Assembly: GCF_001735745.1 (NCBI RefSeq)
Contig: NZ_CP017260.1
Location: 300,001 to 332,000, forward strand
Source: Formosa sp. Hel1_33_131
GTDB taxonomy: Bacteria > Bacteroidota > Bacteroidia > Flavobacteriales > Flavobacteriaceae
Direction: 5' to 3'
DNA length: 32,000 nucleotides
The translations under genes were made by a program, and so were the position numbers. This document shows, one piece after another, positions 2 to 32,000 of this stretch. The notes beneath the pieces are model-generated. The model saw only the letters and a program-made list of their open reading frames with translations, was not told where the DNA came from and searched no databases. Position 1 is the first letter of the stretch. Each line of letters begins with the position of its first letter.

Positions 2-1468
2 CCTTTTGGTTTTAATGGAGATTCTAAGGTCCACACCCCTATTATTGATAACTTAGCAAGTAACGGAATTGTTTTTAACAATGCATTTGTTTCTTCCTCT
101 ATATGCAGCCCAAGTAGGTATAGTATTTTAACAGGAAAATACGCAGGAAGGTCCGAAGGCACTAATTTCTTAAACGGGTATCCCGTAGGGCAATTAAGTC
201 GCGTTGCAAACAATATAGAACTCGAAGAAAATACAGATAATTTACCAAAACTATTACAAGCTGCAGGCTACAATACTGCTTTTATAGGAAAATCTCACAT
301 TGTGGATCATGAATTTTTAAACACCTATACACAAGGCAATTTTGGTTTCATGGCATACGATCAAACCGATGATCCCTATGTAGAAGCAATTTCTGATGCC
401 ATGAAATTTAATCATGATAAATGGGCAGACAGAATTAAAGATTTTGGATTTGATGTTGTGGATGCATTTTATCCCGCAAACTTAAGAGAATTAAAAAATG
501 ATGACTTAAACGTTCACAATGTTGAGTATAAGAATAAAGCGGTTCTCGATTATATTGAGAATGCTAGTGACGACCCTTTCTTTATTTACTACAGTGAAAC
601 GGTGCCTCATGGTCCAGCCCCTTTTTGGTCAAATAATAATAATTTTTATGCCGGTTTAGATTCAGACGTTAATATCACAGCTGAAGGTGTTTTAATACAA
701 GACTATTCGTACTTACCAACACGAGCGCAAATAAAAGATGAAATTTCTAATTTACCTGGAAAGGATATAAAACAAGCTTGGTTGCGTTGGTTTGACCATG
801 CTGTTGGTGCTGTTGTCAGTAAATTAGAGGAAACAGGAAAGTTAGATAACACCATCATCGTTATTACTTCCGATCATGGAGATTTTAACAAAGGGAAATC
901 TACAAATTACGATGCAGGCACAAAAGTACCTTTAATGATCTATTGGCCAGATGGAATTTCGACGCCTTCTACTTACGACGAATTGGTTCAGAATATAGAC
1001 TTCGCCCCTACTTTTTTAGATATTGCGGGTGTAGATATTTCTACTTCAGAGATGGATGGTGTAAGTTTAAAAGAAGTTATTACTAATAATGCTACAGAAG
1101 CTGTTCACGATCATTTATTTTTTGAATTAGGGTTTTCTAGAGCGATTAGAACCAAAGACTGGAAATATGTAACGGTGCGTTATGATGATGCTACAAATCA
1201 AAGAATAGCCGACGGAGACACTTTCAATGGGCCAAACGGAACACAGGTACCTCTACCCTTCTACATCCCAAATGTATCTTTGGGAAGTTTAAGTGCAGCT
1301 GCGTACCCACTGTATCATGTAAAAGACCAATTATTTGATTTAAGCAATGACCCTTATGAAGAAGTCAATCTTTTTGACACTCAATTTGAAATAGCTACAG
1401 AACTAAGGAATACATTAAGAACCGAATTACTTACTTTTATTGACAGACCCTATCAAGAATTTACAGAT
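2..1468 (+). other. Sulfatase module of the fusion protein (paralog of 20401..22041)
   Basis: C-S-P-S-R at 104..118; GKSH, SETVPHGPAP, WLRWFDHAVGAVV, ITSDHGD, GTKVPLMIYWP, LFDLSNDPYEEVNL. Colinear with the 20401 protein down to RPYQEFTD versus RPYAEFVN-stop. Confidence 0.9.
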
Positions 1469-30262: not shown

Positions 30263-32000
30263 ATGATTAAATCAAAACAGAATTTTAAACTCCTACTTCA
30301 TGTAAGTGCACTTACTATTGTTTTTTTTACTTCATTTAGAGTTCAAGGGCAAACCGTAGGCGTAAAAAATGAGGCCTATTTAGTAGATCATGTAAATCCT
30401 TTAATGGGTACAGATTCTAAAAAAAGTATGTCTAACGGAAATACGTATCCTGCAATTGCCACCCCTTGGGGCATGAATTTTTGGACGCCAATGACATCTA
30501 AAATGGGAGATGGCTGGACGTATAATTACGATGATGATAAAATTAGAGGCATCAAACAAACACATCAACCTAGTCCTTGGTTAAATGATTATGCGGCCTT
30601 TTCTTTTATGGCAGTCACAGGTGAATTAAAGTATCAAGAAGATGAAAGAGCTTCATGGTTTTCTCATAAAGCAGAGACGGTAACCCCTTATCATTATAGT
30701 GTCTATCTAGCAGAATATGATGTAGTCGCAGAAGTAGCGCCAACATCGAGAGCTGCACATTTTAAATTTACCTTTCCTGAAGCAGAGTCTTCATACATTA
30801 TGTTAGATGCTTTTTTCAAAGGTTCCATGGTTAAAATTTTACCAGAAAAACGTAAAATTATTGGCTATTGCAGAAACAATAATGGTGGTGTGCCAGATAA
30901 TTTTCATAATTATTTTGTCGCAGAATTTGATAAAGATTTTGAAATGACACACACTTGGAAAGACGATTGGGAACTTCAAAAAAACAACCTCAATAGCGAA
31001 GGAAAACATGTGGGTGCAATCATTGGTTTTAAAACCAAAAAAGGAGAAGTGGTAAACGTAAAAGTAGCCTCCTCTTTTATAAGTTTAGAGCAAGCACAAC
31101 TAAATTTAGATAGAGAAATTGGGAAAAATTCTTTTATAGACACCAAAGAGAAAGCAAAAAATGCTTGGGAAAAGGAACTGAGTAGAATTAAAATTGAAGA
31201 TGATAATAGTAATAACATCAAAACTTTTTATTCTTGCCTATACAGAGTCTTACTATTTCCAAGAACCTTTTATGAGTTTGATACAGATCATAAAATGGTG
31301 CATTACAGTCCATACAATGGAAACGTATTACCAGGTTATATGTTTACAGACAATGGTTTTTGGGATACGTTTAGAGCGGTTTTTCCATTTTTTAATATGA
31401 TGTATCCAGAACAGAATAATAATATTATGGAAGGTTTGGCTAACACCTATAAAGAATCTGGATGGTTGCCCGAATGGGCAAGTCCTGGACACAGAGCTGT
31501 AATGATTGGTTCTAACTCTGCTCCAATTATTGCTGATGCCTATTTAAAAGGAACTATCAAAAATGAAAAAACTGCAGAAATTTTATTTGAAGCCCTACTA
31601 AAAAATGCCACTGTTGAAGAAGGCAGGCCTGTAAGATCTGTGGGGAGAGAAGGATTAAATTATTACAATACTTTAGGCTATGTCCCTTTTGATGTAAATA
31701 TTAGAGAGAATGCTGCCAAAACCTTGGAATATGCCTATGCCGATTTTACAATTGGGCAAATGGCAGAAAAAATGGGAAAAAACAAAATTGCTAAAAAGTA
31801 TTATGAGCAATCGTATCGTTATAAAAATGTATTTGATCCCTCAACAAATTTAATGCGAGGAAAAAATGAAGACGGTACGTTTCAAAGTCCTTTTGATCCA
31901 TTAAAATGGGGGGGTGCTTTTACAGAAGGAAACAGTTTACATTATACTTGGTCTGTTTTTCAAGACATCGATGGATTGATCAACTTAATGGGTGGAAAAG
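30263..32000 (+). CDS. GH92 alpha-mannosidase (third subtype), 3' end cut by the window edge; not in the supplied ORF track
   Basis: I translated by hand from ATG 30263 and found no stop through 32000. MIKSKQNFKLLLHVSALTIVFFTSFRVQGQ (signal), VNPLMGTDSKKSMSNGNTYPAIATPWGMNFWTPMT, IKQTHQPSPWLNDYAAF, FYSCLYRVLLFPRTFYEFD, GFWDTFRAVFPFF, GWLPEWASPGHRAVMIGSNSAPIIADAYLKG, FTEGNSLHYTWSVFQD. Confidence 0.88.
   Translation, partial: MIKSKQNFKLLLHVSALTIVFFTSFRVQGQTVGVKNEAYLVDHVNPLMGTDSKKSMSNGNTYPAIATPWGMNFWTPMTSKMGDGWTYNYDDDKIRGIKQTHQPSPWLNDYAAFSFMAVTGELKYQEDERASWFSHKAETVTPYHYSVYLAEYDVVAEVAPTSRAAHFKFTFPEAESSYIMLDAFFKGSMVKILPEKRKIIGYCRNNNGGVPDNFHNYFVAEFDKDFEMTHTWKDDWELQKNNLNSEGKHVGAIIGFKTKKGEVVNVKVASSFISLEQAQLNLDREIGKNSFIDTKEKAKNAWEKELSRIKIEDDNSNNIKTFYSCLYRVLLFPRTFYEFDTDHKMVHYSPYNGNVLPGYMFTDNGFWDTFRAVFPFFNMMYPEQNNNIMEGLANTYKESGWLPEWASPGHRAVMIGSNSAPIIADAYLKGTIKNEKTAEILFEALLKNATVEEGRPVRSVGREGLNYYNTLGYVPFDVNIRENAAKTLEYAYADFTIGQMAEKMGKNKIAKKYYEQSYRYKNVFDPSTNLMRGKNEDGTFQSPFDPLKWGGAFTEGNSLHYTWSVFQDIDGLINLMGGK

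What the first reader, a model, noticed from the sequence alone, without database searches (positions are those of the whole stretch)
2..32000. 18-gene co-directional PUL whose inventory points to a sulfated (and possibly acylated) alpha-mannan
Seen: one SusC/SusD pair, four GH92 genes, five sulfatase modules each with an intact CxPxR motif, three GH99/71-like modules, one esterase, one GluP/FucP-type permease and one phosphomannose isomerase. All are on one strand with mostly 1-15 nt gaps. I recognised no other glycoside hydrolase family. Established: GH92 enzymes are Ca-dependent exo-alpha-mannosidases, and ManA feeds mannose-6-P into glycolysis. Inference: the target is an alpha-mannan carrying several kinds of sulfate ester; algal sulfated mannans, such as those of diatoms or red algae, are natural candidates. 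As far as I recall, GH92-plus-sulfatase PULs have been noted in genome and proteome surveys of marine Flavobacteriia and ascribed to sulfated alpha-mannans. I know of no enzyme-by-enzyme dissection, and I cannot check that here.
Basis: partly seen in the sequence, partly recalled or inferred. Interest (0 to 1): 0.65.

Follow-up and report, generated by a model that had tools for sequence, protein, structure and literature searches.

The report
Diatom sulfated-mannan utilization locus (known type)

Summary
There are 18 co-directional + strand genes: one SusC/SusD pair, four GH92, five S1 sulfatase modules (all with CxPxR), three GH99-like modules, one esterase, one GluP/FucP-type MFS permease and one class I ManA. 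The interpretation as a sulfated alpha-mannan PUL is right, but it is already explained. Krull et al. 2026 (Microbiome 14:112, PMC13063451; bioRxiv 2024.07.03.601839) showed that the syntenic PUL of Polaribacter sp. Hel1_33_78 degrades diatom C6-sulfated alpha-1,3-mannan. It uses a T9SS-secreted S1_51 sulfatase fused to GH195, a GH92 that releases mannose-6-sulfate, and an S1_11 mannose-6-sulfatase. Their cloning primers land on the ends of window genes with 0-4 mismatches, which maps g16 to PbGH92_1 and g17 to PbSulf2. g1 has the Sulf1-GH195-T9SS architecture, and its sulfatase domain hits the OpSulf1 crystal structure 9FVT (E 2e-167). The window is a diverged ortholog, not that strain. It is 92% nucleotide-identical to the nearest MAG, and it lacks one sulfatase and two GH3 genes. 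"Several kinds of sulfate ester" and acylation remain unsupported. Small additions: stand-alone paralogs of both g1 catalytic domains, and a catalytically degenerate GH99-like lipoprotein next to SusD.

The parts
2..4108 (+). g1, 5'-truncated. Ortholog by architecture of PbSulf1-GH195. Domains: S1_51 sulfatase (about aa 1-490, nt 2-1471), GH195 endo-mannanase (about aa 496-940, nt 1487-2821), right-handed beta-helix with PMP repeats (nt about 2789-3931), T9SS C-terminal sorting domain (nt about 3926-4099).
   Evidence: Pfam: Sulfatase 1.3e-43, GH99 (partial, 30.1 bits, below the cutoff of 33), Por_Secre_tail; Beta_helix and Chlam_PMP. PDB 9FVT (OpSulf1) E 2.2e-167, 52% identity. CSPSR motif. 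The paper describes the same S1_51 + GH195 + T9SS enzyme.
4127..5293 (+). g2, a 388-aa secreted protein with a SusC-type N-terminal CarboxypepD_reg-like domain. Function unknown (position of Pb1060).
   Evidence: Pfam PF13715 1.1e-11. The only PDB hits are to N-terminal domains of SusC homologs. Conserved in L002, L008 and L003.
5479..8715 (+). g3, SusC-like TonB-dependent transporter.
   Evidence: TIGR04056 600 bits (cutoff 368); Plug domain.
8718..10466 (+). g4, SusD-like lipoprotein.
   Evidence: PF12771 4.9e-69; lipobox LFSTSC.
10477..11553 (+). g5, a GH99-related lipoprotein of the OpGH99A type with a degenerate catalytic pair (position of Pb1063). Candidate surface glycan-binding protein.
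   Evidence: PDB 5NGW (OpGH99A) E 1.1e-63. GH99 FNEWHEG aligns to FNDWNRG. Lipobox LISFSC. GH99 Pfam score is 22.3, below the cutoff of 33.
11555..12856 (+). g6, a stand-alone GH195-type (GH99-like) predicted endo-alpha-mannanase and lipoprotein (position of Pb1064).
   Evidence: 56% identical to the g1 GH195 domain. FDExDEG is invariant in 28 homologs and aligns to BtGH99 FNEWHEG. AF2 model pLDDT 87.6; top Foldseek hits are all GH99 (E about 1e-14, TM on target 0.72-0.79).
12868..15123 (+). g7, GH92 lipoprotein (Pb1065 ortholog), 47% identical to g16.
   Evidence: Pfam GH92 6.8e-157. The Pb1065 reverse primer maps at 15124-15142 with 3 mismatches. Paralogy.
15137..17416 (+). g8, GH92 (position of Pb1066, for which the paper lists pNP-alpha-D-mannose under activity on pNP substrates).
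   Evidence: Pfam GH92 1e-185; Table S3.
17488..18801 (+). g9, GluP/FucP-type MFS sugar:H+ symporter. Inferred inner-membrane mannose importer.
   Evidence: TIGR01272 5.8e-89, above cutoff.
18829..20286 (+). g10, S1 sulfatase (Pb1068 ortholog, S1_15 according to the paper). Substrate unknown.
   Evidence: Pfam 3.6e-47. Pb1068 primers map at 18910 (3 mismatches) and 20266-20286 (1 mismatch). CTPTR.
20401..22041 (+). g11, stand-alone S1_51 sulfatase (Pb1070 ortholog). It is the closest window homolog of the crystallised endo-mannan-6-sulfatase OpSulf1.
   Evidence: 9FVT E 4.3e-212, 59% identity. 53% identity to the g1 sulfatase domain. Pb1070 primers show 1 and 3 mismatches at the gene ends. CVPSR.
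22043..23215 (+). g12, alpha/beta-hydrolase carbohydrate esterase (Pb1071 ortholog, 'CE'). Substrate unknown.
   Evidence: Pfam BD-FAE 9.2e-25 and Abhydrolase_3. The Pb1071 forward primer maps at 22109 with 4 mismatches.
23223..24827 (+). g13, S1 sulfatase lipoprotein (Pb1072 ortholog, S1_53 according to the paper). Substrate unknown.
   Evidence: Pfam 2.4e-48. The Pb1072 reverse primer matches 24807-24827 exactly. CGPAR.
24838..25809 (+). g14, class I mannose-6-phosphate isomerase (ManA), cytoplasmic.
   Evidence: TIGR00218 147 bits, above the cutoff of 116; Pfam PMI_typeI_cat.
25878..26207 (+). g15, a 109-aa secreted protein with no family match.
   Evidence: No Pfam or NCBIfam hit. Conserved at 97% identity in metagenome contig L079.
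26304..28544 (+). g16, GH92, ortholog of PbGH92_1 (Pb1075), the exo 6-sulfo-alpha-1,3-mannosidase that releases mannose-6-sulfate.
   Evidence: Pfam GH92 4.3e-141. The Pb1075 forward primer maps at the predicted mature N-terminus (26364, 2 of 20 mismatches; QATDDNT versus QETDDNT). The reverse primer maps at the stop codon (28527-28544, 4 of 18 mismatches). Function.
28578..30164 (+). g17, S1_11 sulfatase lipoprotein, ortholog of PbSulf2 (Pb1078), the exo mannose-6-sulfate sulfatase.
   Evidence: The Pb1078 reverse primer maps at 30144-30164 with 1 mismatch. PDB 5G2V E 2.9e-147 and 7LHA/7LJ2 5.4e-109; 5G2V and 7LJ2 are the two S1_11 structures the paper compares PbSulf2 with. CGPSR.
30263..32000 (+). 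g18, GH92, 3'-truncated (778 aa in metagenome contig L078).
   Evidence: Pfam GH92 2e-98 and GH92N 5.7e-63. L078 is 99.6% identical to the window and carries the full gene.

Best explanation
The window is the core (about 32 kb) of a Bacteroidota polysaccharide utilization locus for the C6-sulfated alpha-1,3-homomannan that diatoms exude. It comes from a marine flavobacterium closely related to, but distinct from, Polaribacter sp. Hel1_33_49/78/96. The mechanism below was shown for the Polaribacter and Ochrovirga orthologs and is inferred here by orthology. (1) g1 is exported by the type IX secretion system. Its S1_51 endo-sulfatase domain removes one 6-O-sulfate inside the chain. Its GH195 domain (GH99-like fold, Glu-x-x-Glu pair) then cuts the alpha-1,3 backbone at the desulfated mannose, giving sulfated oligosaccharides of DP 3-7. 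(2) SusD (g4) and SusC (g3) capture and import the oligosaccharides. (3) In the periplasm, GH92 g16 releases mannose-6-sulfate from the chain end. (4) The S1_11 sulfatase g17 converts mannose-6-sulfate to mannose and sulfate. (5) Inferred only: the MFS symporter g9 takes mannose into the cytoplasm. After phosphorylation by a kinase not encoded in the window, ManA (g14) converts mannose-6-P to fructose-6-P. My own inferences go further. g11 and g6, the stand-alone paralogs of the two g1 domains, may repeat the endo-desulfation and endo-cleavage step at the cell surface or in the periplasm. g5 may be a non-catalytic GH99-derived glycan-binding lipoprotein. The remaining GH92s, the S1_15 and S1_53 sulfatases and the esterase have no assigned substrate.
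For: The gene inventory and order equal Pb1059-Pb1078 of the published PUL (Table S3 and S6). The published cloning primers hit the corresponding window gene ends with 0-4 mismatches for g7, g10, g11, g12, g13, g16 and g17. g1 has the same S1_51-GH195-T9SS architecture. Its sulfatase domain and g11 match the OpSulf1 crystal structure 9FVT (E 2e-167 and 4e-212). g17 matches the S1_11 structures 5G2V and 7LJ2. The GH195 modules have a GH99-like predicted fold and keep the catalytic Glu pair. All sulfatases keep CxPxR, and an FGE maturase lies about 9 kb downstream of the window end, in the 99.6%-identical contig L078. Synteny holds in marine Flavobacteriaceae MAGs and in O. pacifica. Biochemistry, growth and lysate activity come from PMC13063451.
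Against: No experiment has been done on this particular locus. The locus differs from the reference: it has no Pb1069 sulfatase and no GH3 pair between GH92_1 and Sulf2. About 12 of the 18 genes have no demonstrated role, so the natural substrate may be broader than the homomannan. No regulator and no mannokinase are in the window.
Confidence: 0.9

Rival explanations
1. The natural target is a more heavily decorated alpha-mannan, with sulfate at several positions and/or O-acyl groups or side branches. The S1_15 (g10) and S1_53 (g13) sulfatases, the esterase (g12) and the extra GH92s (g7, g8, g18) each remove one decoration or linkage. The C6-sulfated homomannan would be only the simplest substrate.
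For: g10, g12 and g13 are conserved in position, from Polaribacter (primers) to distant Flavobacterium MAGs (g12 and g13 at 61-71% identity in L011-L013). That argues they are under selection as part of the locus. The supplementary NMR legends mention a minor 4-O-sulfate signal and possible xylose-like branches. A sixth sulfatase follows g18 in L078.
Against: The purified mannan is about 95 mol% mannose with roughly equimolar sulfate, all assigned to C6. Four activities suffice for complete hydrolysis, and the other 18 cloned enzymes 'appeared inactive on the mannan'. No acyl signal is reported.
Confidence: 0.3
2. The main target is the sulfated glucuronomannan of diatom cell walls (alpha-1,3-mannan with sulfate and beta-glucuronic acid). 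This was the prediction for this PUL type before 2024.
For: It was predicted by Kappelmann 2019 and Avci 2020 for the Polaribacter PULs. Glucuronomannan co-occurs in C. weissflogii exudate.
Against: The window has no GH88, GH2, GH3 or lyase gene that could deal with glucuronic acid. This lineage has even lost the GH3 pair. The orthologous enzymes act on the homomannan.
Confidence: 0.12
3. The locus targets non-sulfated alpha-mannosides, such as fungal or yeast alpha-mannan or eukaryotic high-mannose N-glycans. The sulfatases would serve an unrelated purpose.
For: GH92 and GH99-type enzymes take part in yeast mannan and N-glycan degradation in gut Bacteroides (family knowledge). Kappelmann 2019 raised glycoproteins as a possibility.
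Against: The window has no GH76, GH125, GH38 or GH130. It has five sulfatase modules in the window, one of them physically fused to the endo-mannanase. OpGH195 required prior desulfation by OpSulf1. Marine yeast-mannan PULs are of a different, sulfatase-free type.
Confidence: 0.03

Closest known systems
Sulfated-mannan PUL of Polaribacter sp. Hel1_33_78 / _49 / _96 (Krull et al. 2026, Microbiome 14:112; predicted earlier by Kappelmann 2019 and Avci 2020)
   Same: Same gene order for Pb1059-Pb1078: Sulf1-GH195-T9SS, small CarbopepD-like protein, SusC, SusD, two GH99-like genes, two GH92, MFS, sulfatases, CE, sulfatase, ManA, small ORF, GH92_1, Sulf2. The primer sites are conserved with 0-4 mismatches. 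The predicted signal-peptide types agree (g7, g13 and g17 lipoprotein-like; g16 SPI-like).
   Different: It is not the same strain or species. The nearest genome locus is 92% nucleotide-identical, and primer sites carry mismatches. No match was found to the primers of the Pb1069 sulfatase (S1, no subfamily) or of the two GH3 genes (Pb1076, Pb1077), and there is no room for these genes. g18 follows Sulf2 directly. g5 has an intact lipoprotein signal, whereas Pb1063 was annotated from an internal Met and scored as having no signal peptide.
Ochrovirga pacifica S85 mannan PUL (OpSulf1 = PDB 9FVT, OpGH195, OpGH92, OpSulf2; OpGH99A = PDB 5NGW)
   Same: SusC/D, an OpGH99A-like protein, a GH195-like gene and GH92 genes lie in the same order (L014). 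g11 is 59% identical to OpSulf1, and g5 matches OpGH99A at E 1e-63.
   Different: In O. pacifica the sulfatase and the GH195 are separate genes only. The window has both a fused T9SS-secreted version (g1) and separate copies (g11, g6).
Bacteroides thetaiotaomicron yeast alpha-mannan PULs (Cuskin et al. 2015) and GH99 endo-alpha-mannanases (BtGH99, BxGH99)
   Same: SusC/D-based import and GH92 exo-mannosidases. The endo-acting enzyme has the GH99 fold with a Glu-x-x-Glu catalytic pair.
   Different: Those PULs have no sulfatases and use GH76, GH125 and GH38. GH99 proper cuts alpha-1,2-linked mannan or N-glycan motifs. The window modules are only 13-17% identical to GH99 structures and mostly fall below the Pfam GH99 threshold.

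Membership tests
Bacteroidota polysaccharide utilization locus | Adjacent susC-like and susD-like genes flanked by co-directional carbohydrate-active enzymes | tested here: met
   g3 (TIGR04056, 600 bits) and g4 (PF12771, 4.9e-69) are 2 nt apart. They are flanked by GH92, GH99-like, sulfatase and esterase genes on the same strand.
Polaribacter-type C6-sulfated alpha-1,3-mannan PUL (Krull et al. 2026) | Multimodular S1_51 sulfatase + GH195 enzyme with a T9SS sorting domain | tested here: met
   g1 has a sulfatase domain (9FVT, E 2e-167), a GH99-like middle domain and Por_Secre_tail. The N-terminus is cut by the window edge.
Polaribacter-type C6-sulfated alpha-1,3-mannan PUL (Krull et al. 2026) | Ortholog of PbGH92_1 (Pb1075) | tested here: met
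   The Pb1075 primers map to the mature N-terminus and the stop codon of g16 (2 of 20 and 4 of 18 mismatches), in the same relative position.
Polaribacter-type C6-sulfated alpha-1,3-mannan PUL (Krull et al. 2026) | Ortholog of PbSulf2 (Pb1078), an S1_11 exo-sulfatase | tested here: met
   The Pb1078 reverse primer has 1 mismatch at the g17 stop codon. g17's best PDB hit is 5G2V, and 7LHA/7LJ2 also hits strongly; 5G2V and 7LJ2 are the two S1_11 structures the paper compares PbSulf2 with.
Polaribacter-type C6-sulfated alpha-1,3-mannan PUL (Krull et al. 2026) | Enzymatic conversion of the mannan to mannose plus sulfate; growth on and induction by the mannan | not testable with these tools
   Shown only for Polaribacter and O. 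pacifica proteins and strains.
GH195 (proposed new family, endo C6-sulfate alpha-1,3-mannanase) | GH99-like (beta/alpha)8 fold, distant from GH99, with the acidic catalytic pair retained | tested here: met
   g6 AF2 model has pLDDT 87.6. Foldseek ranks 1-36 are all GH99 (E 1e-14 to 3e-12, 13-17% identity). FDExDEG is invariant in 28 homologs and aligns to BtGH99 FNEWHEG. The g1 domain is 56% identical to g6.
GH99 sensu stricto | Full-length match above the Pfam PF16317 gathering score, with the catalytic Glu pair | tested here: not met
   g1 scores 30.1 and g5 scores 22.3, below 33. g6 scores 35.9 but covers only model positions 233-339. In g5 the Glu pair is replaced by Asp and Arg.
S1 formylglycine-dependent sulfatases | C/S-x-P/A-x-R motif in a Sulfatase (PF00884) domain, with a maturase available | tested here: met
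   All five modules have CxPxR and Pfam E 1e-43 to 1e-52. An FGE-sulfatase gene (PF03781, 3.3e-72) lies downstream in the 99.6%-identical contig L078.
SulfAtlas subfamily S1_51 | Close similarity to the only structurally characterised S1_51 member (OpSulf1, 9FVT) | tested here: met
   g11 is 59% identical and the g1 domain 52% identical over about 500 residues. A formal SulfAtlas HMM assignment was not available.
GH92 exo-alpha-mannosidases | Full-length GH92 N-terminal and catalytic domains | tested here: met
   g7, g8, g16 and g18 have PF07971 E 1e-98 to 1e-185 plus PF17678. g16 hits GH92 structures such as 2WVY at E 6e-83. Catalytic residues were not checked individually.

The most novel reading that the evidence does not exclude
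The locus may do more than the published four-enzyme cascade. It carries a second, unfused S1_51 + GH195 pair (g11, g6). It carries a catalytically dead GH99-derived lipoprotein next to SusD (g5) that could be a new type of surface glycan-binding protein. It also carries conserved S1_15 and S1_53 sulfatases, an esterase and three further GH92s. These may together handle structurally different mannans, for example from other diatoms, that are differently sulfated, branched or acylated and have not yet been described. Related S1_51 + GH195 gene sets in Flavobacterium MAGs whose names suggest lake samples, and in Verrucomicrobiota and Planctomycetota, would extend sulfated-mannan turnover beyond marine Bacteroidota.
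Probability: 0.3. Interest if true: 0.5.

Novelty: already known. Interest (0 to 1): 0.2.

Why it matters
The PUL type matters ecologically. It links a specific diatom exudate to specialised Flavobacteriia that bloom after diatoms, and it is abundant and expressed in the surface ocean (PMC13063451). That story is already published, including the new GH family, the S1_51 structure and the pathway. This window adds only another natural variant, which lacks the GH3 pair and one sulfatase. That is mild comparative support for the view that those genes are dispensable for the core pathway. The window also gives a clean example in which fused and stand-alone versions of the two endo-acting enzymes coexist. 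The open question is what the roughly dozen unassigned genes do.

Tried and rejected
(1) A megablast of 4.6 kb of the window against PLSDB plasmids found no match, so the locus is chromosomal or environmental. (2) I asked whether the window is Polaribacter sp. Hel1_33_78 itself and rejected that. Most primers carry 1-5 mismatches, and the primers for Pb1069, Pb1076 and Pb1077 forward have no site. The best genome locus is 92% identical. (3) Sigma-70 promoter and intrinsic terminator scans gave counts that are not, or barely, above the shuffles, with no + strand site in an intergenic gap. They say nothing about operon structure, and Bacteroidota promoters are not covered by the tool. (4) BLASTP of g5 against the GH195 domain found no significant similarity, so g5 is not a third GH195. 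(5) Robb et al. 2017 (OpGH99A, PMC5699484) is not held in the library. I used only its title as cited in PMC13063451, the PDB entry 5NGW and my own alignment. (6) The Pb1059 primers could not be placed. The forward site lies upstream of the window, and the reverse primer probably marks an engineered truncation. (7) PDB and Pfam searches on g2 and g15 gave nothing beyond a SusC-like N-terminal domain in g2.

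
Full report
OBSERVATION. The window contains 18 genes, all on the + strand. The three minus-strand ORFs of 100 aa or more lie inside + strand genes. Pfam and NCBIfam scans confirm the inventory:
- g1 (2-4108, 5'-cut): sulfatase + GH99-like domain + beta-helix + T9SS sorting domain
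- g2: small protein with a SusC-type N-terminal domain
- g3 and g4: SusC and SusD
- g5 and g6: GH99-like
- g7 and g8: GH92
- g9: GluP/FucP-type MFS permease
- g10 and g11: sulfatases
- g12: alpha/beta-hydrolase esterase
- g13: sulfatase
- g14: class I ManA
- g15: 109-aa protein of unknown function
- g16: GH92
- g17: sulfatase
- g18: GH92 (3'-cut)

All five sulfatase modules carry C-x-P-x-R. No other GH family is present. Eight of the 17 intergenic gaps are 15 nt or less, and the others are 18-185 nt, so 'mostly 1-15 nt' is a little generous.

WHAT IT IS. [quoted passage not shown] The paper shows the following:
- Polaribacter sp. Hel1_33_49/78/96 grow on it.
- Four activities encoded by three genes of a large PUL hydrolyse it completely.

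The four activities are these:
- PbSulf1-GH195 is an S1_51 endo-sulfatase fused to a new GH99-related family, GH195, and carries a T9SS domain. It first desulfates and then cleaves the chain.
- PbGH92_1 releases mannose-6-sulfate.
- PbSulf2 (S1_11) desulfates mannose-6-sulfate.

Table S3 of the paper lists the cloned genes: Pb1059 (Sulf1-GH195), Pb1063 and Pb1064 (GH99-like), Pb1065 and Pb1066 (GH92), Pb1068-1070 (S1_15, S1 unclassified, S1_51), Pb1071 (CE), Pb1072 (S1_53), Pb1075 (GH92_1), Pb1076 and Pb1077 (GH3), and Pb1078 (Sulf2). This is the window's gene order.

LINKING THE WINDOW TO THAT LOCUS. I searched the gene-specific parts of the published cloning primers (Table S6) in the window. 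They fall exactly at the corresponding gene ends:

| Primer | Window position | Mismatches | Window gene |
|---|---|---|---|
| Pb1065 reverse | 15124-15142, just after the stop codon | 3 | g7 |
| Pb1068 forward / reverse | 18910 / 20266-20286 | 3 / 1 | g10 |
| Pb1070 forward / reverse | 20476 / 22019-22041 | 1 / 3 | g11 |
| Pb1071 forward | 22109 | 4 | g12 |
| Pb1072 reverse | 24807-24827 | 0 | g13 |
| Pb1075 forward / reverse | 26364 / 28527-28544 | 2 / 4 | g16 |
| Pb1078 reverse | 30144-30164 | 1 | g17 |

The Pb1075 forward primer starts at the predicted mature N-terminus of g16 (QATDDNT versus QETDDNT). Hence g16 is the PbGH92_1 ortholog and g17 the PbSulf2 ortholog. g1 has the Pb1059 architecture.

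Independent support:
- The g1 sulfatase domain and g11 hit the OpSulf1 crystal structure 9FVT at E 2e-167 and 4e-212.
- g17's best PDB hits include the S1_11 structures 5G2V and 7LJ2, which the paper uses for PbSulf2.
- g5 matches OpGH99A (5NGW) at E 1e-63.

THE WINDOW IS A VARIANT, NOT THE PUBLISHED STRAIN. Primer sites carry mismatches. The primers for Pb1069, Pb1076 and Pb1077 forward have no site, and there is no room for those genes. The Pb1077 reverse primer falls inside g17's 5' end (28648-28663, 1 mismatch), which fits g17 = Pb1078. The best species-representative genome locus is L008, an uncultured Flavobacteriaceae MAG. It is collinear at 92.2% nucleotide identity over 14.1 kb. Metagenome contigs at 97.9-99.98% identity exist. 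One of them, L078, shows the downstream continuation: the full-length GH92, a sixth sulfatase, a GDPD phosphodiesterase, a minus-strand T9SS beta-helix protein and an FGE sulfatase maturase. Upstream in L008 lie a T9SS beta-helix protein and a Kelch-repeat protein, and then unrelated genes. Synteny extends to several marine Flavobacteriaceae MAGs, to O. pacifica and to three Flavobacterium MAGs.

MECHANISM. The steps below are shown for the orthologs and inferred here. g1 is secreted and surface-attached by T9SS. It removes an internal 6-O-sulfate and then cleaves the alpha-1,3 backbone into sulfated DP 3-7 oligosaccharides. SusC/D import them. g16 releases Man-6S, and g17 gives mannose and sulfate. 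The following steps are inferred only: g9 imports mannose, and g14 (ManA) feeds Man-6-P into glycolysis. No kinase and no regulator are in the window.

ADDITIONS BEYOND THE PAPER (my analyses):
- The three GH99-like modules are of two kinds. The g1 middle domain and g6 are 56% identical.
- An alignment of 28 homologs keeps M-F-D-E-x-D-E-G-T invariant. A profile of it aligns this motif to BtGH99 F-N-E-W-H-E-G-T. From my own knowledge, these are the two catalytic Glu residues, E333 and E336 in BxGH99. The PDB titles of E333Q and E336Q variants, one of them (E404Q in human MANEA) labelled inactive, agree with this.
- An AF2 model of g6 (pLDDT 87.6) finds only GH99 structures in its top 36 Foldseek hits (E 1e-14 to 3e-12, 13-17% identity).
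- g5 has no significant BLASTP match to them and has the Glu pair replaced by D...R. It has a lipobox and sits directly after SusD. I infer a glycan-binding rather than a catalytic role.
- g11 is a stand-alone S1_51 paralog of the g1 sulfatase domain (53% identity). It is closer to the biochemically active OpSulf1 (59%) than the g1 domain is (52%). The window therefore encodes both a fused and an unfused version of the endo-sulfatase and endo-mannanase pair.
- Residues about 930-1300 of g1 form a PMP-repeat right-handed beta-helix. It is paralogous (35-41% identity) to separate T9SS proteins flanking the locus.
- The GH195-like family is large: more than 7300 hits at E 1e-10 or better among the 8000 candidates scored. 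S1_51 + GH195 genes co-occur in Verrucomicrobiota loci.

The substrate class and the likely source (diatoms) are right, and the recalled surveys exist. The claims of 'several kinds of sulfate ester' and acylation are not supported by the characterised substrate. The paper reports that the other 18 cloned enzymes appeared inactive on the mannan. Supplementary NMR legends do mention minor 4-O-sulfation and possible xylose-like branches, so a broader substrate range is not excluded. The statement that no enzyme-by-enzyme dissection exists is out of date.

RIVALS. Glucuronomannan was the pre-2024 prediction. It is unlikely to be the main target of this window, which has no GH88, GH2, GH3 or lyase gene. 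Yeast mannan and N-glycans are very unlikely: there is no GH76, GH125 or GH38, a sulfatase is fused to the endo-mannanase, and the GH195 needs prior desulfation.

VERDICT. This is a real feature and it was correctly read. It is an ortholog of a published, biochemically dissected PUL. Novelty: already known. Interest: low (0.2). The residual interest lies in the dozen genes without an assigned role.

Noticed in passing
window 10477-11553 (g5): GH99-related protein of the OpGH99A type (PDB 5NGW, E 1e-63). The GH99 catalytic motif N-E-W-H-E-G reads N-D-W-N-R-G here. It has a lipoprotein signal (LISFSC) and lies 10 nt after SusD, the usual position of surface glycan-binding proteins. In the Polaribacter paper the ortholog (Pb1063) was cloned from an internal Met and scored as having no signal peptide. 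The window ORF suggests that start may be 13 codons too short.
   Followed up: partly
window 11555-12856 (g6) and 20401-22041 (g11): These are stand-alone paralogs of the GH195 domain (56% identity) and the S1_51 domain (53% identity) of the fused enzyme g1. The crystallised, active OpSulf1 (9FVT) is closer to g11 (59%) than to the g1 domain (52%). The unfused pair may therefore also act on the mannan.
   Followed up: partly
window about 2789-3931 (g1 C-terminal region); L008 9926-11368; L078 7775-10876 (minus strand): Between the GH195 domain and the T9SS sorting domain, g1 carries a right-handed beta-helix of about 380 aa with Chlamydia-PMP-type repeats. It is 35-41% identical to separate T9SS beta-helix proteins on both flanks of the PUL. 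Its role (stalk, adhesin or lyase-like) is unknown and is not discussed in the parts of the paper I read.
   Followed up: partly
L011, L012, L013 (Flavobacterium MAG contigs): These loci are syntenic with the window: SusD, g5-like, g6-like, two GH92, S1_51, esterase and S1_53, at 55-79% protein identity. The MAG isolate names look like lake samples (for example ME2002... Rohwer_bin, possibly Lake Mendota). If so, this PUL type also occurs in fresh water. The habitat was not verified.
   Followed up: no
L021, L025, L028, L053 and many other loci: S1_51-like sulfatase and GH195-like genes co-occur, sometimes with S1_11-like and S1_15-like sulfatases, in Verrucomicrobiota (Lentimonas, Coraliomargaritaceae, Puniceicoccaceae). 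GH195-like genes at about 45% identity are common in Planctomycetota and Verrucomicrobiota MAGs, including rumen and soil bins. A fused sulfatase-GH195 also appears in some Planctomycetota contigs (L036, L039).
   Followed up: no
L078 5551-12290 (downstream of the window end): The locus continues beyond the window with a sixth sulfatase, a glycerophosphodiester phosphodiesterase (GDPD), a 1033-aa minus-strand T9SS beta-helix protein and an FGE-type sulfatase maturase.
   Followed up: partly
window 4127-5293 (g2) and 25878-26207 (g15): These are two conserved secreted proteins with no assignable function. g2 has only a SusC-like N-terminal CarboxypepD_reg domain. g15 (109 aa) has no family hit.
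   Followed up: partly
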